Below are positions 11,472-31,941 of a DNA stretch of 64,000 nt, piece after piece (position 1 is the stretch's first letter; every line of letters begins with the position of its first letter). Origin of the DNA: Actinomycetes bacterium (GTDB taxonomy: Bacteria > Actinomycetota > Actinomycetes > JACCUZ01). The stretch is taken from NCBI GenBank assembly GCA_038246545.1, contig JBBRVW010000018.1:6490-70489 (forward strand), read 5' to 3'. The notes below the pieces were generated by a model. It ran no database searches and was not told where the DNA came from. It saw only the letters and a program-made list of their open reading frames with translations. The translations under genes were made by a program, and so were the position numbers.

Positions 11472-12514
11472 CCAGTCCCCACGACCCGCGCGACGGGTCC
11501 CACGACGACCAGCTGGCGGCGCGACTGCGCGACGCCCTCACCTCGGAGGCCGACATGGTCCAGCCCTCGGACGACGGTCTGCAGAACATCCGCACCGGCA
11601 TCGACACCGCCCACCGACCGTGGTGGCGGCACCCGGCGACGCCCGCGCTGGCGGCGGCCCTCGTGCTCGGTCTGATGGCCGGCGGCATCGCGGTCATCGC
11701 CGGCGGGGGTGACGACGAGGTGACCGTCGGCCCGGCGAGCGGGACACCGACGGCCGACGACGGGACCGCCTCCCCCACGACGCCGTCGGACTCGCCGTCG
11801 ACCGGCACGCCCACGCCGGTTCCGATCGAGGGCGACGTCTACGTCTACTACGTCATGGACGACGGGCAGGCGCCGCGGCTGTACCGCGAGCAGCGCCCCA
11901 ACCCCGGCATGGGCCCGGTGGATGCCGCGTTGGCCACCTTGTTCAACGAGGCGCCTGTGGACCCGCAGTACCAGTCGCCGTGGCCGGCTGGCACCACGGT
12001 GCGCGACTACTCGACGTCCGGCGACACGGCCACCCTCGACGTGTCCGACTACCCCAAGTTGGGCGCGCGGGCCGAGGAGATCGCCGTCCAGCAGCTCGTC
12101 TACACCGTGACCGCCAACGACAAGGCTGTGACGAAGGTGCGTCTTCGCATCGACGGAAAGGCTCCGCCGTCCGGACACGTCGACTGGTCCCAGCCGGTCA
12201 GCCGCGCGCCGATGCTCGACGTGCAGGGCCTGATCTGGCTTCTCACGCCGACCGAGGGCGCGAGCGTGTCGTCGCCGGTCGACTTCACCGGCTACGGCAC
12301 CGCCTTCGAGGCAACGATCAGCTGGCAGCTGCGCCAGGACGGCAAGGTCGTCGACGAAGGGACGGTCATGGGTGGCTCGAACGGCGAGTTCGGGGAGTTC
12401 ACCGGCTCGCTGGGCGACCCGCCGGCCGGCGACTACGAGCTGCGCGCGTTCGAGGCGTCCGCCAAGGACGGCAGCCCCCAGCACGTCGACACCAAGACCT
12501 TCACCGTCGAGTAG
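11468..12514 (+). CDS. putative membrane anti-sigma factor with extracytoplasmic GerMN and Gmad2 (Ig-like) domains
   Basis: Translationally coupled to the ECF sigma (ATGA). About 60-aa cytoplasmic N-terminus, one TM helix (AALVLGLMAGGIAVIAG), a Thr/Pro-rich linker, then GerMN-like and Gmad2-like domains. Confidence 0.55.
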   Translation: MTSPHDPRDGSHDDQLAARLRDALTSEADMVQPSDDGLQNIRTGIDTAHRPWWRHPATPALAAALVLGLMAGGIAVIAGGGDDEVTVGPASGTPTADDGTASPTTPSDSPSTGTPTPVPIEGDVYVYYVMDDGQAPRLYREQRPNPGMGPVDAALATLFNEAPVDPQYQSPWPAGTTVRDYSTSGDTATLDVSDYPKLGARAEEIAVQQLVYTVTANDKAVTKVRLRIDGKAPPSGHVDWSQPVSRAPMLDVQGLIWLLTPTEGASVSSPVDFTGYGTAFEATISWQLRQDGKVVDEGTVMGGSNGEFGEFTGSLGDPPAGDYELRAFEASAKDGSPQHVDTKTFTVE

Positions 12515-21296: not shown

Positions 21297-23204
<1,908 letters not shown>

Positions 23205-23267
23205 CCTCCCACGCGGCCAGCCGTTACTGGCGCGCGCCGATGGCGGCCCGGCGGCGATGATGGCGCG

Positions 23268-24203
23268 ATGCAGCAGAAGCGGCCCGCGGCCGCCGGCACG
23301 CGCATCGCGTGGGCCGACGTCCCCGACCACGTGCGGGGCGACGTCGAGGCGGGCCTGGGCTCGCCGGTCGTGTCCGCCCGCACCCAGCACGGCGGGTTCT
23401 CCCCCGGAGCGGCGGTGCGCCTCGTGTGCGCCGACGGCACGCGGGCGTTCGTCAAGGCCTGCGGGTCCGGGCTGAACCCGGACACCCCGGACCTGCTCCG
23501 CGCCGAGATCGACGCGCTGGCACTCCTGCCGTCGTCGGTCCCGCATGCCCGGCTGCTCGCGTCGTACGACGACGGCGCCTGGGTGGCACTGACCCTCGAG
23601 GACGTCGAGGGCCGGCACCCCGCGATCCCGTGGACCGGGCGCGACCTGGCGCCGACGCTCGCCGCGCTCGAGCGCACCGGGCGGACCCGAGCACCGAAGC
23701 GGCTGCCGGCCTTCGCCGACGTGGCTCAGCTGCTCACTGCCTGGGACGAGGTGGCGGCCGACCCCGTGGCCGTGCCCGACGAGCTGGTCGACCGGCTGCC
23801 GCAGCTGCTCGACCTGCAGAGGACTGCCCTGCAGGTCACCGCCGGTGACCGGCTGGTGCACTGGGACGCCCGCGCCGACAACATCCTGCTGCGCGACGGC
23901 AAGGCGGTGCTGCTCGACTGGGCCTGGGCCTGCAGGGGCGCCGGCTGGCTGGACACCCTGCTGCTCGCCATGGACCTCCGGGTCCAGGGCGGCCCGGACC
24001 CCGACGAGGTGCTCGGATCCTCGCCGGTGACCCGCGACGTGCCGCCGGGGCACCTGGCCGCGGTGGTCGCGTGCATGGTCGGATTCTGGTTCGAGCGGGC
24101 CCGCCACCCCGCGCCGCCGGGGCTGCCGACGATCCGCGCCTGGCAGCAGCACTGCGCCGCTGCCGCCCACGACTGGCTGGACCGGGGTGCGCTGTGGTCG
24201 TGA
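23268..24203 (+). CDS. aminoglycoside/choline-kinase-like phosphotransferase (APH family), paralog A
   Basis: Brenner motif region [12 protein letters not shown] and DWAWAC(R)G. ATG at 23268 lies within the artefactual ORF 22461..24203. Confidence 0.65.
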
Positions 24204-25171
24204 CCGCGCGGCCGCCGTACGACCGGACGGCAGTCCGACCGGCGTGGGCCGAGCTGCCCGCGGAGGTGCGCGACCTGGTCGCGGACCAGGCCGGGTCGGC
24301 CGTGGTGCGCGCCGACGTCGCCGGCGGTGGGTTCACCCGGGGGTTCGCCGGCCTGCTCGGGCTGGCCGACGGTACCGAGCTGTTCGTCAAGGCTGCTTCG
24401 GAGGAGGAGCGGCCGGTCGCGCACCGGTCGTACCGGACCGAGGCCGACGTGCTGCGGGTGCTGCCGGGTGCCGTGCCGGCGCCGAGGCTCCGGTGGACCG
24501 ACGAGGTCGGTCCTTGGGTGGTGCTGGGTATCGAGCCGGTGCGCGGCCGCATGCCGGGGCTGCCCTGGACCGACGTGGACGTCGACCGCGCCGTCGCGAC
24601 CTGCGAGCAGCTGGCCGACGCGCTGCACCCGGCCCCGCCGGGCCTGGCGCTGGACCGGCTCGCCGACGAGAGCGAGGGAGACGGCGCGTGGCTGCGCTGG
24701 TACGCCAGCGTCGCAAGCGGCGAGCTGGTCAGCGACCTGCTGTCTCCGTGGGCACAGCGTTCCCTGCCCGAGCTGCATCGGCTGCTGTCGGTGTCAGGAG
24801 CAGCGGTCGACGGCGACACCGCCTGCCACGGCGACCTGCGGGCCGACAACATGCTGCTCGGTCCGGCCGGCCAGGTCTGGGTCTGCGACTGGAACTGGCT
24901 GCTGCTCGCCGCCCCGTGGACCGACGCCGTGGGGCTGCTGGTGACTGCCCACGCCGACGGCGTCGACGTCGACGCCGCGCTGGCCCGGTCGATGCTGCTC
25001 GACGGCGTCGACCCGGAGGCAGTCGACGCGTGGCTGGCGCTGCTGGCGGCGTTCATGTGCGGTCAGGCGGCTGCTCCGCCACCCGACTTCGCCTCGTCCT
25101 GGCTGGCGGCGCACCGGGCCTATTACGGCACCGCCGCCCTCTCCTGGCTGGAGCACCGCCGCACCCGCTGA
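24194..25171 (+). CDS. APH-family phosphotransferase, paralog B
   Basis: [12 protein letters not shown]...VCDWNW catalytic motifs. GTG start overlaps the paralog A stop. The two proteins are clearly homologous. Confidence 0.65.
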
Positions 25172-25190
25172 GCGGCCCGGACGCGGGGAA

Positions 25191-25217
25191 GCCCCGCCGG
25201 ACGGTGTCCGGCGGGGC
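25191..25217. terminator. bidirectional terminator hairpin between convergent APH-B and M6 protease A
   Basis: GCCCCGCCGGA-CGGTG-TCCGGCGGGGC, 11-bp perfect inverted repeat. Confidence 0.5.
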
Positions 25218-25240
25218 CTCCTCGGTATTGCGTCAGGCAC

Positions 25241-27679
25241 CTACTTGCTCGGACCGACCGAGATCGTCATGTACTTGCCACCGGACGCCTGGCCGAGGAC
25301 CTTGATCGCCGTCCCGGTCTTCGGGACGTCGACGCTGGTCCAGCCGACCTGGTACCGGCCCTCGTGCGCCGCCGTGTGCCCGTCGGTCGCGTACCACCAG
25401 GTCTTGGTGTCGTCGAAGGTCGGGACTGCCGGCTTGGATGCGATCGTCGTGGCGACGCTGTCCTTGTGCACAGTGATCGCATCGGTGCGCTCGAGACCGA
25501 AGGTCGAGTCGTACGACTGGATCCGCTGCCGCATGTACTGACCGTCCGAGGCCCAGTGCTCGAACGACGGGTGGGCGTCGACCGGCAGTGCGAGGCCGCC
25601 GCCCGGGTGCTCGCCCACGTTGTTGTTCGAGAAGGACTCGTCCCAGTAGGTCACGAGCATGCCGTTCTGGTACGGGTAGTTCTCGACCCAGTCGGGCTTG
25701 GTGTTGAGGAACCCGAAGTTGTACGCAGTCCTCAGCGACGCGTCGTAGCCGTCGTACTGACGGTTCTCCGCGAGGTAGGCGTTGAAGTGCTGCGTGGTCG
25801 CGTTTCCGGCGTCGAGCGTCGTGAACCCGTTGTAGGTCCACGCTGCCCGGTCGGCGTCGCTCTCGGCGCCGTCCACCGGGTTGCCGGTGATCGCCATGTT
25901 GTCGACGACAGCCCCCTTGCCACCGGTGTTCGCGTCGGTCTCGTAGCGCCACCGCACCAGGGCCGGACCGGAGCCGGGCAGGCTGGCGGTGAGTGTCTCG
26001 TAGACCCCGCCGCTGGAGCCGGCGATGCCGGTGCCGCTGCCGTTGAACGAGCCCTCGTCCGCTGTCGCCGGCTCGGACAGGTTGGTGAGGACCGGCTCCC
26101 AGGTGGTGCCGTTGTCGTGCGAGACCTCGAGGAACACGTAGTCGTAGTGCGGTTCCGTGTCGAACCAGAAGTCCGCCGTGAGCGTCGACCCCGCGGCGTA
26201 GGTCACCGGCTTGGTCATGGTGTGGCTGAAGTTGTCACCCATGCCGCTCCAGTACGCGAAGCCGCCGGTCTTCGGCGCGACGACGAAGGTCTTCTTGTTC
26301 TTGTCCGGCAGGACGACGAACAAGGCTTGGGCCTTCTTCGTGGCGGCGTCGTTCGGGCCGAGCTGGACGGTCTTCTTCTTGTCTCCGGAGTGCACCGTCT
26401 CGTAGAAGCTGCCACCGGGGCAGGTCGGGCAGCCGAGCCAGCCGAGCTGGAACTTCTCCCAGGCACCCAGGTCGGTCGGCGCGTCGCCGATGCCGTCGGG
26501 GCGGCCGTCACCGATGTTGGCGCCGGACGACATCAGCGTCCAGAACGCCGTGCTGTTCTCGGCACCGCCGGTGTTGCCCGAGGTGTCGTAGAGGTCCGGC
26601 AGGCCGAGGTCGTGGCCGAACTCGTGCGCGAAGACACCGAGCCCGCCGTTCTCCGGCTGCATCGTGTAGTCGTAGACCCAGACACCGGTCGGGTTGTTCG
26701 GCACCAGCGAGCTCGACACGAGACCGCCGTTGCTGCCGACGTCGACGCCGACGCCGAACGGGCCACCGGACTGGAGGTTGGCCGCCGAGCGGTGGCTCCA
26801 GATCGCGTCGGTGCCCTGGTTCGGGTCGCCCGCGGCCTCGTCGCCGCCGGCGTGCACGATCTGGAAGTGGTCGATGACCCCGTCGGGCTCGTCAAAGTTT
26901 CCGTTGCCGTTGATGTCGTAGCGGTCCTGCTGGTCGAACGTCTTCAGGTAGGCCGTGATCTGAGGCATGGTCATGCCCGAGTCCAGCTTGCTCTTCACCC
27001 ACATGGCTAGCGCGTCTCGCACGAGCGCCTTGGAGGTGTTGCAGACGATGCTGCCGCAGTAGTCACGGCCGTAGAGCGCCTCGTTGAACGGGACCTTGAC
27101 CCACTCGGTGACGGTGCCGTCGACCGAGTAGCGGCCCGACGACTGGGTCTCGTAGTACTTCTTCATTCGGTTGAAGTACATGTCCTGGTAGTGGGCCTGG
27201 TTGTAGTCCGGCTGCCAGAGCGTGCTGTTGTCGACCGACCGGTCCGGCTCGGGGATCTCGTTGTTCTGCGGTCCTGTGACGTCGGTGGCGCTGCCATCCG
27301 GCGGCGGGCCCTGGAAGATCGGGTTCGGGTACTGGTTGTCGCCGAAGTCGACGAGGACCACGAAGATCTTGTCGGTGCCCTCGTTGGCGAGTTTGACGTA
27401 CTGACCCTTGCCGACCTTGACGACCTTCTGCTGGGCTGCCTTGTCGCCCTTGAGACGCTTCTCGAGGGCGGCCTGACGCTGCTGGTTCTGCTGCTTGGCG
27501 CGCGGGCTCGACAGGTTGTCGGAGAACTTGCCCTTCACGTTCTTGGCGATCTTCTCGGCCGTGGGGGTGGCCGGTGGCGCGGCGGTCGCCGGTGTGGCGG
27601 CGAGCAAGCCGGCGGTGATGAGGCTGCCGGCGGCGAGGGCGGCGAACAGGCCGCGCGTCCTCTTCGTGGGCTCGGACAA
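25241..27679 (-). CDS. secreted M6 family metalloprotease (immune inhibitor A-like), paralog A
   Basis: N-terminal signal peptide (LFAALAAGSLITAGLLAATPATAA), HEFGHDLGLPDLYD zinc-binding HExxH, large C-terminal beta-rich region. Confidence 0.8.
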   Translation of the reverse strand: MSEPTKRTRGLFAALAAGSLITAGLLAATPATAAPPATPTAEKIAKNVKGKFSDNLSSPRAKQQNQQRQAALEKRLKGDKAAQQKVVKVGKGQYVKLANEGTDKIFVVLVDFGDNQYPNPIFQGPPPDGSATDVTGPQNNEIPEPDRSVDNSTLWQPDYNQAHYQDMYFNRMKKYYETQSSGRYSVDGTVTEWVKVPFNEALYGRDYCGSIVCNTSKALVRDALAMWVKSKLDSGMTMPQITAYLKTFDQQDRYDINGNGNFDEPDGVIDHFQIVHAGGDEAAGDPNQGTDAIWSHRSAANLQSGGPFGVGVDVGSNGGLVSSSLVPNNPTGVWVYDYTMQPENGGLGVFAHEFGHDLGLPDLYDTSGNTGGAENSTAFWTLMSSGANIGDGRPDGIGDAPTDLGAWEKFQLGWLGCPTCPGGSFYETVHSGDKKKTVQLGPNDAATKKAQALFVVLPDKNKKTFVVAPKTGGFAYWSGMGDNFSHTMTKPVTYAAGSTLTADFWFDTEPHYDYVFLEVSHDNGTTWEPVLTNLSEPATADEGSFNGSGTGIAGSSGGVYETLTASLPGSGPALVRWRYETDANTGGKGAVVDNMAITGNPVDGAESDADRAAWTYNGFTTLDAGNATTQHFNAYLAENRQYDGYDASLRTAYNFGFLNTKPDWVENYPYQNGMLVTYWDESFSNNNVGEHPGGGLALPVDAHPSFEHWASDGQYMRQRIQSYDSTFGLERTDAITVHKDSVATTIASKPAVPTFDDTKTWWYATDGHTAAHEGRYQVGWTSVDVPKTGTAIKVLGQASGGKYMTISVGPSK

Positions 27680-27877
27680 GGGGTCCCCTTCGTCTGTGGG
27701 CTACGGCACGCCCGACCGGCATGTGACGGTTGTCATCCGGTCGGGCGCTGCACCGTAACCCCCTCCTGGTGGGTCACGGAAGGTGTGGCTACCCCCTTCT
27801 TGCCAGCCCGTTGCTCCGAACGGGTGATCGGCTCACGCTGCGTGACGTCGCGTTGCGGCGTCACGCACCACGCTGGC

Positions 27878-27911
27878 GGAGGGCCCGGCACCTCGCGGGT
27901 CCGGGCCCTCC
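27878..27911 (-). terminator. terminator hairpin 20 nt downstream of M6 protease B stop
   Basis: GGAGGGCCCGG-N12-CCGGGCCCTCC, 11-bp perfect GC-rich inverted repeat. Additional palindromes at 27710..27746 and 27840..27866 in the same spacer. Confidence 0.45.
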
Positions 27912-27931
27912 GTCGTCGTCCTGCGGGCGGC

Positions 27932-30319
27932 TCAGCCGCCGCCGGACTGGGTCACGCCGTTGGCGGTCAACGTGTACGTCGGGTAGGCCGTCGACGTCTC
28001 GGTCGGGTCGTCGGCGGTGACCAGCGCGGCCACCGTCGTCGTACCCCGCTTGTTGCCGACCAGACGGGTGAGGTCGCCGTTGTCCGCGTTGGCGACCCAC
28101 AGGCCCCGGTTGGCGTTGTACCGCAGCGGCAGCGAGCCGACGTAGGCCTTCTTGCCGTCGCCGTAGGCCACCAGCTGCACGGTCCAGCCTGCCACCGGCA
28201 CCGGGTGCGCCTGCGTGAGCGACTGCCACGCCGACAGGTCGGTACCGTCGGAGACCAGCTGGCCGCCGACGGTGACGTTGTCGACCCAGAACCCGTCGCC
28301 GACCGTCGCCGCGTCCGTGATGTAGCGGAACGCGATGTCGATGGACTGGCCGGCGTACTTCGACAGGTCGAACGTCTCGGTGCCGGAGCTCTGGTCGTCG
28401 GTCGTGGTGACGTCGCCGTCCGGGTTGGGCGACGGGCCGTCCAGCCCCGGCAGGTTCGCCACCACGTTGGCAGCCGCAGCCGGGTCGTGCTCGCTGGTGG
28501 TGTTGCTCTCGTTGTCCGGGAGGCTGACCCACTTCTGCTGTGCCGGGTCGTAGACCTGGACGTAGGCGAAGTCCCAGCCCAGCTCGGTGCCCCAGGTGAG
28601 ATCGGCCGACAGGACCGCCTGGCTCGGGTCGGTCGGCACCGTGACCTGCCGGGCGATACCCCGGTCGAGGTCGTCGCCCTGCCCGGAGTACAGCCGGCCG
28701 CCGTCGACGGTCCACTCCACGGGCGCCGGGTCGTAGCTGCCCGCGCCCTGGAAGGTCAGCGCCTCCAGGTCCTTGGCGTTGACGTGGCCGAACCGGTCGC
28801 CCAGCCGGACGTAGTCAGCGCCGTTGGGCGGGGCGCCCGGCGACGAGTAGGCCTGCGGGGTGTCGAAGTTGATGATCGACTTCAGCGTCGGCGCCGTGTA
28901 GTCGCGCTTGTCGCCGCCCTTGAGCCTGGCGCCCTGGTCGATCTGGTAGTCCAGCGCCATCATCGCCTGCCACTGGTGCACGACCTCCTGCGCCGTGATC
29001 CCGCGGTAGCCGAACCGGTTCATCACCGTCTGCAGCCCGACCAGCCCGTTGCCCTGCTCCTTGTGCAGCGCGGACATGAACGCGTCGCCGCCGAACCGCC
29101 CGTGCAGGTACTCCATGATCGAGTACGCCGCGCCGTAGTCGCACAGGATCTCCGGACCACCCTGGTCACCCCACTGGGTCAGCGAGTTCTCCGGGCCGCC
29201 GAAGTTGTCGCCGAGGTAGCCCTGGAAGCAGGAGATGTGCCGGTCGGCAGCGTCAGCCGTCGGGAGGTTGTTCGGGTCGACGTAGCCCACCAGGGTCTGC
29301 GCCCAGTCGGACAGGCCTTCGTTGACCCAGTTGACCTCGTCGGCGTCCTGGTCGTGCTCGAGCAGGTGCTGGTACTCGTGGGCGAAGGTGCCCTCGTACT
29401 GATGCGGCCGAGGAGTCACGCCGGCGGAGTCACAGCCGGTGCCGTTCGGCCGGTCATCGGGCGGGGTGGCCCCGGTGCGGTGCAGCCAGTCGAACGAGTC
29501 GATGTTCATGATGTTGCGATCGAACGTGTCGGCGTACAGCGAGGAGAAGAACCCGGCGATGTAGGTCTGTCCGGCCGGGGTGTTCGGGTCGTAGTAGTTG
29601 TCGTCGCGCACGTTGTCGACCAGGGTGACGACCTTGTCCGCCGGGCCGGCCCAGTAGTCCGCGTCTACACCGAGGATCTCGTTGAACGGCGCGCCGAAGG
29701 TCGGCTGGAGATCGGTGCCCGGCCGCGGCTTCAGCGCCGAGAACGCCTCGGTCTCCTTCGGGTACATGTTCGTGTCGAACTCGGTGATGAAGCTCTGCAC
29801 CTGCGCATCGGTGACCGTGATCTCCTGGCCACCGAACACCGTGTTGCGGCACTCACCGGTCGAGCCGGCCGGGAAGTCCAGTGCCTGCGAGTAGGTGCCG
29901 TCACCGTTGTCGCGCACGGCGACCCAGATCTCGATGTGGTCCCCCACGCCGACCAGCTGGAACGACTTGACGTAGTACCTGCCGAGGGCGTCGTTGAGCG
30001 CGAGCCAGGTCTTCACCGTGCCGACCGGAGGCGACTCGCCGGACGCGGCGGCGGCCATTGCGCGGCGCTGCGACGCCTGTTCCTGGGCGGCCTGCTCCTT
30101 CGCGGAGCTGGGCGGCTGGAGGGTGTCGAGCTTCCCGGACAGCACGTCGGCGGGTGTGCCGACGGGGATGTTCCGGTCCTTGGCGGTCGCCGCGGCGGCT
30201 GCCTTGGCGTCGGCCTTCGTGGGGCCTGCGGTGGTGCCGGCAGACGCTGCGGTGGTGGCCGGTGTCACGGCCATCGCCACTGCTGCTGCCACGGCACACC
30301 ATCGTGTGGTGCGACGCAT
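27932..30319 (-). CDS. secreted M6 family metalloprotease (immune inhibitor A-like), paralog B
   Basis: Signal peptide (MRRTTRWCAVAAAVAMAVTPATTAASA), HEYQHLLEHD zinc-binding motif, same overall architecture as paralog A but highly diverged. Confidence 0.8.
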   Translation of the reverse strand: MRRTTRWCAVAAAVAMAVTPATTAASAGTTAGPTKADAKAAAAATAKDRNIPVGTPADVLSGKLDTLQPPSSAKEQAAQEQASQRRAMAAAASGESPPVGTVKTWLALNDALGRYYVKSFQLVGVGDHIEIWVAVRDNGDGTYSQALDFPAGSTGECRNTVFGGQEITVTDAQVQSFITEFDTNMYPKETEAFSALKPRPGTDLQPTFGAPFNEILGVDADYWAGPADKVVTLVDNVRDDNYYDPNTPAGQTYIAGFFSSLYADTFDRNIMNIDSFDWLHRTGATPPDDRPNGTGCDSAGVTPRPHQYEGTFAHEYQHLLEHDQDADEVNWVNEGLSDWAQTLVGYVDPNNLPTADAADRHISCFQGYLGDNFGGPENSLTQWGDQGGPEILCDYGAAYSIMEYLHGRFGGDAFMSALHKEQGNGLVGLQTVMNRFGYRGITAQEVVHQWQAMMALDYQIDQGARLKGGDKRDYTAPTLKSIINFDTPQAYSSPGAPPNGADYVRLGDRFGHVNAKDLEALTFQGAGSYDPAPVEWTVDGGRLYSGQGDDLDRGIARQVTVPTDPSQAVLSADLTWGTELGWDFAYVQVYDPAQQKWVSLPDNESNTTSEHDPAAAANVVANLPGLDGPSPNPDGDVTTTDDQSSGTETFDLSKYAGQSIDIAFRYITDAATVGDGFWVDNVTVGGQLVSDGTDLSAWQSLTQAHPVPVAGWTVQLVAYGDGKKAYVGSLPLRYNANRGLWVANADNGDLTRLVGNKRGTTTVAALVTADDPTETSTAYPTYTLTANGVTQSGGG

Positions 30320-30641
30320 TCGGTGATCCCCTCGCTGCTGTCGATGAGTGGTGACTCTCCGTGGAGATGGAGAGCTTCCGGCACTCTCATCCGCAAACCC
30401 GCAGTAATCAAGACTTTCGCGGTAATTTTCTGGTGCTTCCGCACCAGAGGGCAGGGCGATGCCGGATCAGCCCGCAGGTCGGCGGGTGCCGCGGGCCAGG
30501 GGGCGGCCGCGGCCACCGGCCTCGGTTTGGCCGGAACCGGGCGGGGTTGCTAACCTGTCCCGTCGCACGCTGTGCGCAGCCGTCGCATGCCCCTCGGGCG
30601 TGGCGGCACCCCCGACCGATCACACTCTTTGAGGCTTCTTC

Positions 30642-30902
30642 GTGGCGAACATCAAGTCCCAGCTCAAGCGGATCAAGACGAACGAGAAGGCGCGGCTGCG
30701 CAACAAGGCCGTCAAGTCCTCCCTCAAGACGTCGGTCCGCAAGTTCCGCGAGGCCGTCGATGCCGGTGACCGCGACACGGCGACCACGCTGCTCGTGACG
30801 GCCGGGCGCCAGCTGGACAAGGCCGCGAGCAAGGGCGTCATCCACAGGAACCAGGCCGCCAACCGCAAGTCGGCGATGGCCAAGCGGGCCGCCTCGCTCT
30901 GA
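30642..30902 (+). CDS. rpsT: 30S ribosomal protein S20
   Basis: [23 protein letters not shown]... GTG start preceded by GAGG. Confidence 0.9.
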
Positions 30903-30930
30903 GCGAGCCCCCCGCAGCACGTCGAGGGCG

Positions 30931-31941
30931 TCACCCCACGGGGTCGGCGCCCTTCGTCGTGCTCCGGCCCGGGGCCGCGCCCTCGCGGGCGTTGACGATG
31001 GCGCCGACGGCGCGCTCGAGCGCGTAGACCGGGTCGGTGCCCCCGCCCTTGATCTGCTCGTCGGCCCTGGCCACGGCGAGGATGCCGGCGGCCACGCCGT
31101 CCGGTGTCCAGCCGGCCAGCTGGCCGCGCGCCTTGCGGACCTGGAACGGCGCCAGCCCGAGGTCGCGGGCGATGTCGTCGGGCCGGGCCGACCGGGAGGC
31201 ACCGGCCACCTTGGCCAGGGTCCGCAGCCCGGCCGCGAACGCGGCGTTGATCGGCACCGGGTCGACCCCGGTGGCCAGCGCGTGACGCAGCAGCCGGAGC
31301 GCCTCCTCGTAGCGGCCCTCGACGGCGGCGTCGGCCACCTTGAAGCCGGTCACCTCGACGCGGCCGGAGTGGTAGCGCTCGACCACCTCGACGTCGACCG
31401 TGCCGGTGGTGTCCGAGACCAGCTGGCTGCACGCCTGCGCGAGCTCCCGGAGGTCGCTCCCGAGGGCGTCGACCAGCGCCACGGCCGCGGCCGGCGCGAC
31501 CCGGCGGCCGGCCGCCTTGAACTCGCCCTGGACGAAGGCGACCTTGTCGCTCTCCCACTTCACCTGCTTGCACTCGACGACGACGGCGCCGGCCTTCTTC
31601 ACCGCGTCGAGCAGTGACTTGCCCTTGACGCCCCCGCCGTGCACCAGCACCAGAACCACGTCGTCGGGCGGGTCGGCGACCGCGTGCCGCAGCTCGTCGG
31701 CGAGCGCCTCGGCGGCCTCCGCGAGGTCCCGGACGACGATGACGGTGGTGCCGCCGAACAGCGACGGGCTCGCCAGCCCGGTGACCCGGCCCGGCTCCAG
31801 CCCGACGGACGACAGGTCGTGGACCTCCGCGTCCGGGTCGGCCGCACGCACCGCGGCGACAACCGTGGCCACCGCCCGGTCGCGCAGCAGGGCCTCGGGG
31901 CCGGCGACGAGGGTGAGGGGGGCGGGGCCGGGAGCGGGCAT
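30931..31941 (-). CDS. holA: DNA polymerase III subunit delta
   Basis: HolA-like. Start is ATG at 31941, or GTG at 31980 which would overlap the comEC 3' end. Confidence 0.75.
   Translation of the reverse strand: MPAPGPAPLTLVAGPEALLRDRAVATVVAAVRAADPDAEVHDLSSVGLEPGRVTGLASPSLFGGTTVIVVRDLAEAAEALADELRHAVADPPDDVVLVLVHGGGVKGKSLLDAVKKAGAVVVECKQVKWESDKVAFVQGEFKAAGRRVAPAAAVALVDALGSDLRELAQACSQLVSDTTGTVDVEVVERYHSGRVEVTGFKVADAAVEGRYEEALRLLRHALATGVDPVPINAAFAAGLRTLAKVAGASRSARPDDIARDLGLAPFQVRKARGQLAGWTPDGVAAGILAVARADEQIKGGGTDPVYALERAVGAIVNAREGAAPGRSTTKGADPVG

What the first reader, a model, noticed from the sequence alone, without database searches (positions are those of the whole stretch)
25241..30319. 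Two tandem, highly diverged secreted M6 (immune inhibitor A-like) zinc metalloproteases with strong flanking terminators
Both about 800-aa proteins have signal peptides, HExxH motifs (HEFGHDLGLPD / HEYQHLLEHD) and long beta-rich C-terminal regions, but share little primary similarity. That suggests ancient duplication or independent acquisition. InhA-type proteases in Bacillus degrade host antimicrobial peptides; in a soil actinomycete they may process extracellular proteins. Each gene has its own GC-rich terminator hairpin (25191..25217, 27878..27911) and additional palindromes (27710..27746, 27840..27866), suggesting independent regulation.
Basis: partly seen in the sequence, partly recalled or inferred. 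Interest (0 to 1): 0.5.

Follow-up and report, generated by a model that had tools for sequence, protein, structure and literature searches.

The report
Two unrelated secreted zinc proteases, adjacent
Two neighbouring genes for secreted zinc proteases are not diverged copies of one another: one is an ordinary InhA-type (M6) protease, probably added recently, and the other has a catalytic domain like staphylococcal lugdulysin (M30) joined to an InhA-type MAM domain, which explains why databases often mislabel its family as M6.

Summary
Two intact ORFs (25241-27679 and 27932-30319, minus strand; 812 and 795 aa) carry signal-peptide-like N-termini and HExxH motifs, and three of the four claimed hairpins are significant.

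- **P1, the downstream gene,** is a textbook M6/InhA protease: Pfam catalytic, MAM and VEG domains, and a full-length match to B. anthracis InhA2.
- **Shared region:** profile-profile comparison finds only the MAM domain in common.

Neither gene is core. In 55 more distant actinobacterial loci, rpsT and lepA are adjacent or nearly so, with no such protease between them. The three closest relatives carry P2 but not P1. P1 lies on a 2,694-bp segment placed just after P2's terminator, so a recent insertion is favoured.

These are ordinary secreted proteases. The modest novelty is an unmodelled, commonly mis-annotated M30-like + MAM family (at least 2,264 clusters) and a lineage-specific protease locus.

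The parts
25241..27679 (-). P1: secreted M6 / immune-inhibitor-A-like zinc metalloprotease, 812 aa, probably made as a pre-pro-enzyme
   Evidence: ORF. Pfam Peptidase_M6 6.6e-82, InhA-like_MAM 1.2e-19, InhA-like_VEG 7.2e-31. TIGR03296 2.8e-66. Full-length match to InhA2, PDB 4yu5, E 1.1e-47.
26438..27403 (-). P1 catalytic domain (aa 93-414), with HEFGHDLGLPD at aa 352-362 (nt 26594-26626)
   Evidence: H352, E353, H356 and D362 are invariant in 33 homologs.
25814..26353 (-). P1 MAM domain (aa 443-622)
   Evidence: This is the only region homologous to P2.
25268..25780 (-). P1 VEG domain (aa 634-804)
   Evidence: Pfam PF20774, 7.2e-31.
27932..30319 (-). P2: secreted Glu-zincin, 795 aa, with a lugdulysin/M30-like catalytic domain, an InhA-type MAM domain and a C-terminal beta domain
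28880..30037 (-). P2 catalytic domain (about aa 95-480). HEYQH...NEG is at aa 314-335 (nt 29315-29380); the catalytic-type Tyr395 is at nt 29135-29137.
28208..28702 (-). P2 MAM domain (aa 540-704)
   Evidence: Pfam PF20773, 5.1e-17. hhalign to the M6 family MAM domain: probability 99.4, E 4.6e-21. Profile hit to InhA2 residues 435-573.
27935..28207 (-). P2 C-terminal beta-sandwich region (aa 705-795), conserved in the family, with no model match
   Evidence: High-pLDDT beta strands, conserved consensus, no Pfam hit.
27864..27925 (-). Hairpin 7 nt after the P2 stop; probable P2 terminator, conserved in L002, L003 and L004
   Evidence: dG -44.5, z -3.2. The same hairpin is present at the same place in relatives.
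25185..27878 (.). 2,694-bp segment (P1 with its 199-nt upstream region and its own hairpin) that is absent from the three closest relatives
   Evidence: blastn boundaries against L002 (about 95% identical flanks), L003 and L004. Junction sequences.
27709..27747 (-). 11-bp-stem hairpin enclosing the palindrome TGACaaccGTCA, 30 nt upstream of the P1 start; candidate leader or operator
   Evidence: dG -33.6, z -4.5. About 70% conserved with the region upstream of the syntenic homolog in L086.
25184..25224 (.). Very stable GC hairpin between the convergent P1 and APH2 genes; probable bidirectional terminator
   Evidence: dG -39.5, z -6.2.
27839..27867 (-). 13-nt-arm palindrome at the edge of the inserted segment; not better than shuffles
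   Evidence: z -1.2.
30642..30902 (+). rpsT (ribosomal protein S20), divergent from P2; boundary of the variable interval
   Evidence: Translation. Pfam Ribosomal_S20p on the syntenic genes.
21297..23162 (-). lepA; the other boundary of the variable interval
   Evidence: Start taken from the gene call on L088.
23268..25171 (+). Two tandem APH-type phosphotransferase genes (23268-24203 and 24200-25171), convergent with P1
   Evidence: Gene calls on L088: the 323-aa product has Pfam APH, the 311-aa product has no Pfam hit on record. The two are about 34% identical to each other.

Best explanation
The region holds two independently acquired genes for secreted zinc endopeptidases that share only an accessory domain. 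P1 (25241-27679) is a canonical M6/InhA-type enzyme. It has a signal peptide and pro-region, a catalytic domain with the HExxHxxGxxD zinc site, and MAM and VEG domains. P2 (27932-30319) is a Glu-zincin. Its catalytic domain has the fold and catalytic residues of the M30 peptidase lugdulysin: zinc held by H314, H318 and E334 of an invariant NEG motif, E315 as the general base, and Y395 as the transition-state-stabilising tyrosine. The catalytic domain is followed by an InhA-type MAM domain and a further beta domain, which probably bind substrate or a surface. Both enzymes most likely degrade extracellular proteins or peptides for a soil actinomycete. Each gene is probably transcribed on its own: a strong hairpin follows each gene, and P1 has a conserved leader of its own. 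The rpsT-lepA interval, which is only about 0.1-3 kb in most sampled actinobacteria, has expanded in this clade and collects secreted-protease genes. P2 was already present in the common ancestor of the window and its three closest relatives. The 2.7-kb P1 cassette was most likely inserted later, directly after the P2 terminator, in the window's own lineage. Shown here: the domain assignments, homologies, conservation and gene presence/absence. Inferred: secretion, enzyme activity, the roles of the zinc-site residues, transcription units and the direction of the indel.
Against: Pfam's M30 model does not hit P2 or any of 48 relatives even at permissive thresholds. Identity to lugdulysin is only 18-19%, and the HExxH-to-Glu spacing differs (16 vs 23 residues). 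P2 is therefore a distant relative and not a certified M30 member. Model coordinates could not be inspected, so zinc-site geometry is inferred from alignment only. No activity, secretion or transcript data exist. For the insertion scenario: no P1 homolog above 70% identity exists among 5.8 billion proteins; P1's GC3 is host-like (0.94); P1-type genes with a similar leader sit in the same interval in L084 and L086; and P1 groups with the L084 copy in 32/40 bootstraps. These points would also fit an old resident that was lost repeatedly. No sigma-70-like promoter was found.
Confidence: 0.8

Rival explanations
1. One reading: both genes are M6 (InhA-like) proteases, ancient tandem duplicates that have diverged beyond easy recognition.
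For: Both have HExxH, a similar length and a shared InhA-like MAM domain. Several databases name P2 relatives 'peptidase M6' or 'immune inhibitor A'. True M6 pairs do occur elsewhere: L084, L086 and the Intrasporangiaceae loci.
Confidence: 0.03
2. The domain assignments stand, but P1 is an old resident of the rpsT-lepA interval that was deleted independently in the L002, L003 and L004 lineages, and was not inserted in the window's lineage.
For: No candidate donor above 70% identity. Host-like GC3. P1-type M6 genes sit at the same position in L084 and L086, with a partly conserved leader. NJ tree places P1 with the clade containing the syntenic L084 copy in 32/40 bootstraps. The interval shows other gene-content changes: the small ORF present only in L002/L003, and APH2 missing in L003.
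Against: It needs two or three deletions that all end at the same point just after the P2 hairpin (hairpin followed by GTGCGT/GTCCGT in L002, L003 and L004). L002 is about 95% identical in the flanks, so its loss would have to be very recent.
Confidence: 0.3
3. P2 is a catalytically dead pseudo-protease, or a binding or adhesion protein that merely retains a zincin scaffold.
For: No curated catalytic-domain model recognises it. It has large non-catalytic beta domains.
Against: H314, E315, H318, E334 and Y395 are invariant in 48 sequences that are 48-81% identical to P2, along with many neighbouring residues. That is the pattern expected under selection for catalysis.
Confidence: 0.05
4. P2 is an M1-type or other Glu-zincin aminopeptidase and not an M30-like endopeptidase.
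Against: Lugdulysin scores about twice as high and covers 303 of its 360 residues at 2.7 A. No M1 model hits. P2 shares the tyrosine equivalent to lugdulysin Y315, in its D-Y-G context.
Confidence: 0.05

Closest known systems
Immune inhibitor A (InhA1/InhA2) of Bacillus thuringiensis and B. anthracis, MEROPS M6, PDB 4yu5/4yu6
   Same: P1 aligns over its whole length (residues 33-798 to InhA2 52-738, E 1.1e-47) and has the same three Pfam domains and the HExxHxxGxxD motif. P2 shares only the MAM domain.
   Different: P1 comes from a high-GC soil actinomycete and not an insect or mammal pathogen, and there is no evidence that it targets host antimicrobial peptides. P2 has a different catalytic domain and no detectable VEG domain.
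Lugdulysin of Staphylococcus lugdunensis (PDB 7bb8/7bb9), a homolog of the S. hyicus ShpI protease; MEROPS M30, the hyicolysin family
   Different: Only 18-19% identity. Pfam Peptidase_M30 does not hit P2. The HExxH-to-Glu spacing is 16 residues against 23, and Glu-to-Tyr is 61 against 47. P2 carries an extra ~300-residue MAM and beta-domain extension: its family is 720-830 aa, against about 400 aa for the lugdulysin chains.
M1 aminopeptidase N / leukotriene A4 hydrolase family (Glu-zincins)
   Different: Much weaker structural match, no sequence-model hit, and different domain architecture.
Other actinobacterial M6 pairs (Phycicoccus, Pedococcus and related Intrasporangiaceae)
   Same: These are P1's closest named homologs (68-69% identity). 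They too occur as pairs of protease genes.
   Different: There both genes are true M6, they are convergent, and they lie between glnA and panB rather than between rpsT and lepA.

Membership tests
MEROPS M6 / Pfam Peptidase_M6 (applied to P1) | Match to the curated catalytic-domain models (PF05547, TIGR03296) above their cut-offs | tested here: met
   PF05547 275.5 bits (cut-off 22); TIGR03296 224.3 bits (cut-off 110.8).
MEROPS M6 / Pfam Peptidase_M6 (applied to P1) | Extended zinc motif HExxHxxGxxD | tested here: met
   HEFGHDLGLPD at residues 352-362; H352, E353, H356 and D362 are invariant in 33 homologs.
MEROPS M6 / Pfam Peptidase_M6 (applied to P1) | InhA architecture: catalytic, MAM and VEG domains, homologous over the full length to a solved InhA | tested here: met
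   PF20773 and PF20774 hits; 4yu5 match over residues 33-798, E 1.1e-47.
MEROPS M6 / Pfam Peptidase_M6 (applied to P1) | Zinc-dependent endopeptidase activity | not testable with these tools
   Requires biochemistry.
MEROPS M6 / Pfam Peptidase_M6 (applied to P2) | Match to the catalytic-domain models (PF05547, TIGR03296) | tested here: not met
   No hit for P2 at E<=0.1, for its catalytic region alone at E<=10, or for any of 48 family members at E<=1. hhalign between the P2 and M6 families aligns only the MAM domain.
MEROPS M6 / Pfam Peptidase_M6 (applied to P2) | HExxHxxGxxD motif | tested here: not met
   HEYQHLLEHDQD: position +3 after the second His is E321 (not Gly) and position +6 is Q324 (not Asp).
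MEROPS M6 / Pfam Peptidase_M6 (applied to P2) | InhA-like MAM domain | tested here: met
   PF20773 5.1e-17, found in 48/48 members; hhalign probability 99.4.
MEROPS M6 / Pfam Peptidase_M6 (applied to P2) | InhA-like VEG domain | tested here: not met
   No PF20774 hit, and no alignment outside the MAM domain in hhalign.
MEROPS M30 (hyicolysin/lugdulysin) (applied to P2) | Match to Pfam Peptidase_M30 (PF10460) | tested here: not met
   No hit in P2 or 48 relatives. A 126-aa lugdulysin fragment itself scores only 24.3 bits.
MEROPS M30 (hyicolysin/lugdulysin) (applied to P2) | Significant sequence-profile homology to a solved M30 peptidase across the active-site region | tested here: met
   The A1 profile hits 7bb8 with E 5.7e-7 for the whole sequence, over profile positions 278-409.
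MEROPS M30 (hyicolysin/lugdulysin) (applied to P2) | Catalytic-domain fold closest to M30 | tested here: met
MEROPS M30 (hyicolysin/lugdulysin) (applied to P2) | Glu-zincin site: HExxH, a downstream Glu as third ligand, and a catalytic Tyr | tested here: met
   H314/E315/H318/E334/Y395 align to lugdulysin H241/E242/H245/Glu268/Y315 and are invariant in 48/48. The ligand roles are inferred from the alignment and from the mutations named in 7bb9; the geometry was not inspected.
MEROPS M30 (hyicolysin/lugdulysin) (applied to P2) | Endopeptidase activity dependent on zinc | not testable with these tools
   Requires biochemistry.
Intrinsic (rho-independent) terminators | GC-rich hairpin followed by a U-tract | tested here: inconclusive
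   Stable hairpins directly follow both stop codons, but there is no U-tract and the consensus scan gives no hit on the minus strand. Tail-less terminators are said to be common in high-GC actinomycetes (my own knowledge), so function remains plausible but untested.

The most novel reading that the evidence does not exclude
P2 represents a large, uncharacterised peptidase family (at least 2,264 clusters at 90% identity, in Nocardioides, Kineococcus, Gaiellales and many soil MAGs). Its catalytic domain is a distant, currently unmodelled branch of the M30/lugdulysin Glu-zincins that has been fused to the MAM module of M6 proteases. That would merit its own MEROPS/Pfam family or subfamily and would correct widespread 'peptidase M6' and 'choice-of-anchor J' annotations. 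In addition, the rpsT-lepA intergenic region in this clade acts as a preferred integration site that collects and exchanges secreted-protease genes (P2-type, M6, S8).
Probability: 0.4. Interest if true: 0.4.

Novelty: new variant of a known kind. Interest (0 to 1): 0.3.

Why it matters
The practical value is in annotation. At least 2,264 protein clusters in this family are labelled inconsistently: 'peptidase M6', 'immune inhibitor A', 'choice-of-anchor J' or 'hypothetical'. The only curated model that recognises them is the MAM domain. Their catalytic domain is in fact lugdulysin/M30-like and is covered by no Pfam or NCBIfam model. Recognising this gives a testable active site (E315, E334, Y395). 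It also gives M30, so far best known from staphylococcal proteases, a possible large set of distant relatives in soil Actinomycetota. In addition, it is a clear example of an accessory MAM module shared between two different zincin subclans. The locus history is a small, clean case of how secreted-enzyme repertoires change between genomes that are about 95% identical in this region. None of this changes general understanding: both genes are ordinary extracellular proteases.

Tried and rejected
1. Single-sequence search of P2 against PDB sequences found nothing at E<=10; only the family profile reached lugdulysin.
2. A homolog search seeded with a 126-aa lugdulysin fragment, meant to build an M30 profile for profile-profile comparison, returned only three short fragments. 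No M30 alignment could be made, and that search was wasted.
4. The literature searches did not find the lugdulysin structure paper. The M30 assignment therefore rests on the PDB entry titles, a statement of ShpI homology (PMC9224237) and the MEROPS table in PMC3890501.
5. The low G+C of P1 (0.67 against 0.725 for the window) was considered as evidence of foreign origin and rejected. GC3 is 0.94, like the host genes, so the dip comes from amino-acid composition.
6. The sigma-70 promoter scan found none. The consensus terminator scan found only chance-level hits on the plus strand inside coding sequence.
7. Rfam found nothing in 25000-31000 at E<=1.
8. A search for conserved neighbours of P2 homologs in 81 loci found no recurrent partner; the maximum was 12 loci, which I attribute to subgroup synteny.
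9. The first tree-building attempt timed out; a reduced version ran.
10. No P1-cassette remnants were found at the L002, L003 or L004 junctions.
11. A lipoprotein or Tat signal was considered by eye and rejected: there is no lipobox before C8 of P2 and no twin-arginine consensus.
Full report
**1. What is there**

The minus strand carries two intact, co-directional ORFs at exactly the stated coordinates. P1 is 25241-27679 (812 aa, TTG start). P2 is 27932-30319 (795 aa, ATG start). Both starts have Shine-Dalgarno-like purine runs upstream.

Both N-termini have a charged n-region, an Ala/Leu-rich hydrophobic core and an AxA-type site. The consensus of 48 P2 relatives keeps that pattern, and the AF2 model is disordered over residues 1-74. 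No signal-peptide predictor was available, so secretion is inferred.

The two proteins share a single weak similarity: 26% identity over 164 aa, E 3e-4.

Neighbouring genes:
- lepA, 21297-23162 (-)
- two tandem APH-type phosphotransferase genes, 23268-24203 and 24200-25171 (+), convergent with P1
- rpsT, 30642-30902 (+), divergent from P2
- holA and comEC beyond rpsT

An independent Logan assembly contig (L001) is 100% identical across the P2-P1 junction. An NCBI MAG contig (L088) matches 27992-22739 with one mismatch. The arrangement is therefore not an assembly artefact.

**2. Hairpins**

Folding as RNA against dinucleotide shuffles gave:

| Position | Location | dG (kcal/mol) | z-score |
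|---|---|---|---|
| 25184-25224 | after P1, between convergent genes | -39.5 | -6.2 |
| 27864-27925 | 7 nt after the P2 stop | -44.5 | -3.2 |
| 27709-27747 | 30 nt before the P1 start | -33.6 | -4.5 |
| 27839-27867 | edge of the inserted segment | -21.9 | -1.2 (not significant) |

None is followed by a U-tract, so the consensus terminator scan misses them. The hairpin after P2 is conserved at the same place in the three closest relatives, which argues for function. Rfam finds no known RNA in 25000-31000.

**3. P1 is a canonical M6 protease**

- Pfam gives Peptidase_M6 (6.6e-82, residues 93-414), InhA-like_MAM (1.2e-19) and InhA-like_VEG (7.2e-31).
- TIGR03296 scores 2.8e-66.
- P1 aligns to B. 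anthracis InhA2 (4yu5) from residue 33 to 798, E 1.1e-47, including VFAHEFGHDLGLPDLYDT.
- H352, E353, H356 and D362 are invariant in 33 homologs.
- All 120 listed homologs have the same three domains. The nearest are 63-70% identical, from Phycicoccus, Pedococcus, Knoellia, Janibacter and Nocardioides.

**4. P2 is not M6 in its catalytic domain**

- The only curated model that hits P2 is the InhA-like MAM domain (5.1e-17, residues 543-690).
- The same is true for all 48 aligned relatives: no M6, VEG or M30 hit at E<=1.
- It also holds for the catalytic region scanned alone at E<=10.
- The motif HEYQHLLEHDQD has Glu where M6 needs Gly and Gln where M6 needs the Asp ligand.
- A profile-profile comparison of the P2 family (A1) with the P1/M6 family (A4) returns one aligned region only, the MAM domain: P2 540-704 to P1 471-626, probability 99.4, E 4.6e-21.

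**5. What P2's catalytic domain is**

- *Sequence profile.* The family profile hits two solved proteins. InhA2 matches over the MAM domain only (E 1.1e-8). Lugdulysin of Staphylococcus lugdunensis (7bb8/7bb9) matches with E 5.7e-7 across the HExxH region, plus a weak match in the N-terminal region.
- *Catalytic residues.* In the profile alignment, P2 H314/E315/H318 align with lugdulysin H241/E242/H245. E334 of the invariant N-E-G aligns with the Glu of WLNEALS (residue 268 by my numbering). Y395 of the invariant D-Y-G aligns with Y315. E242 and Y315 are the residues mutated in the deposited variant 7bb9. All five are invariant in 48/48 relatives that are 48-81% identical to P2.
- *Classification.* The lugdulysin stretch lies within Pfam Peptidase_M30. 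Lugdulysin is described as a homolog of S. hyicus ShpI (PMC9224237). MEROPS places M30 (hyicolysin) in subclan MA(E), the Glu-zincins, and M6 in MA(M) (PMC3890501, Table 2).

P2 is therefore a Glu-zincin with an M30-like catalytic domain joined to an InhA-type MAM domain and a conserved C-terminal beta domain. Because Pfam's M30 model does not hit it, identity is only 18-19% and the ligand spacings differ, I describe it as M30-like, a distant relative, and not as a certified M30 member.

**6. Family size and annotation**

At least 2,264 clusters match P2 at E<=0.001. They come from soil and freshwater Actinomycetota: Nocardioides, Marmoricola, Kineococcus, Microlunatus, Intrasporangium, Gaiellaceae and many MAGs. 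Sources name them 'peptidase M6', 'immune inhibitor A', 'choice-of-anchor J domain-containing' or 'hypothetical'.

The M6 label most plausibly comes from the shared MAM domain. That is my inference. P2 homologs have no recurrent gene partner; the best neighbour cluster is found in 12 of 81 loci.

**7. Locus history**

- *Closest relatives.* The three closest genomes have holA-rpsT-P2-APH-(APH)-lepA but no P1. They are L002 (flanks about 95% identical in DNA, lepA 98.9%, P2 97%), L004 (P2 81%) and L003 (P2 76%). Against L002, the difference is exactly window 25185-27878 (2,694 bp): P1, 199 nt upstream of it and its own hairpin.
- *Junctions.* All three relatives share the same junction: P2 stop, CTGAACGAC, the hairpin, GTGCGT or GTCCGT, then the stop of the convergent gene. 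L003 has this although it also lacks APH2. One insertion in the window's lineage explains this more simply than two or three deletions with the same end point.
- *Points that weaken the insertion reading.* No donor above 70% identity exists. P1's GC3 (0.94) is host-like, so the G+C dip seen is only amino-acid composition. P1-type genes occupy the same interval in two more distant relatives: L084 has rpsT-M6-M6-lepA (lepA 88%), and L086 has rpsT-S8-M6-M6-APH-APH-like. L086 also has a partly conserved leader. P1 is sister to a clade containing the L084 copy in 32/40 bootstraps of a simple NJ tree.
- *Weighting.* I put insertion at roughly two to one over repeated loss.

**8. Are the genes core?**

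No. Among 55 metagenomic actinobacterial loci with lepA 77-83% identical and rpsT found upstream:
- rpsT and lepA are less than 350 nt apart in 31;
- they are 0.35-2.9 kb apart in 21, five of these with an APH-like gene;
- they are more than 6 kb apart in 3;
- none has a P1-, P2- or S8-type gene in the interval.

In the window the interval is about 7.5 kb. The protease cargo is a clade-specific expansion of an otherwise tight divergent gene pair. Its content varies even between near relatives: P2 alone, P2 + M6, M6 + M6, or S8 + M6 + M6.

**9. Mechanism, with shown and inferred steps marked**

- *Shown:* domain homologies, conserved catalytic residues, hairpins and gene presence/absence.
- *Inferred:* both proteins are exported by Sec and probably activated by removal of an N-terminal pro-region, as in InhA2. 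P1 hydrolyses proteins through a His-His-Asp zinc site. P2 does so through a His-His-Glu zinc site with Glu315 as base and Tyr395 stabilising the intermediate. The MAM and beta domains bind substrates or surfaces. Each gene is transcribed separately.
- The likely role is extracellular protein and peptide degradation in soil. Nothing links either gene to host antimicrobial peptides.

**10. Verdict**

The finding is largely ordinary. The modest novelty lies in the unmodelled M30-like + MAM family, which is widely mis-annotated, and in the variable protease locus between rpsT and lepA.

Noticed in passing
window 23162-30642; L084 4984-11389; L086 3752-14517: The rpsT-lepA interval is a variable secreted-protease locus in this clade only. 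The window has P2 + M6, L002-L004 have P2 alone, L084 has M6 + M6, and L086 has S8/PPC + M6 + M6 + APH genes. In 55 more distant actinobacterial loci, rpsT and lepA are adjacent or within 3 kb in 52, and none has such proteases.
   Followed up: partly
window 27680-27800 (-); L086 7880-8000: About 110 nt upstream of P1 is roughly 70% identical to the region upstream of the syntenic M6 homolog in L086, although the proteins are only 63% identical. Shared elements are ACCTTCC, GGGTTACGGT, a TGAC(n4-5)GTCA palindrome inside the 27709-27747 hairpin, and the RBS. Intrasporangiaceae homologs have GGTAACGA...GTGATCAC at a similar place. This may be a conserved promoter, operator or leader of P1-type M6 genes.
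   Followed up: partly
L002 14413-14928; L003 13348-13837; window about 23216-23226: L002 and L003 carry about 515 bp between APH1 and lepA that the window and L004 lack. It encodes a small ORF of about 130 aa that I judged RidA/YjgF-like by eye; no domain search was run. This is a second gene-content difference within 9 kb between genomes about 95% identical here.
   Followed up: partly
window 23268-25171 (+): Two tandem phosphotransferase-type genes with a 4-nt stop/start overlap, about 34% identical to each other. The 323-aa product has Pfam APH; the 311-aa product has no Pfam hit on record. L003 has only one of them. Single APH-like genes also sit between rpsT and lepA in 5 of 55 distant loci.
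   Followed up: no
L088 (NCBI GCA_039930885.1, JBDTTB010000185.1), equal to window 27992-22739: In this MAG assembly the contig carrying P1 starts 61 nt inside the 3' end of P2, while P2 itself is recorded on an 81-kb NCBI or Logan contig. An assembly break at the insertion junction could reflect strain-level presence/absence of P1 in the sampled population, or the hairpins.
   Followed up: no
L066 3903-8366; L028, L061, L062, L075 (about 15-20 kb): L066 (Gaiellaceae) has two tandem P2-type paralogs. In four other loci a true M6 gene (42-60% identical to P1) lies 3-6 kb downstream of the P2 homolog. This is a mild, possibly lineage-dependent tendency of the two protease types to co-locate.
   Followed up: no
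L082, L083, L085, L087: In the Intrasporangiaceae-type loci, P1's closest named homologs sit in a conserved glnE-glnA-...-M6 > < M6-panB arrangement. This is a convergent M6 pair, with an M36-like peptidase gene next to panB in three of the four loci and M20 and M24 peptidase genes also within these loci.
   Followed up: no
L004 about 12395-12440: Between the P2 stop and its hairpin, L004 has three tandem copies of a 15-nt unit (CATGAACCAGCACTG) that L002, L003 and the window lack.
   Followed up: no
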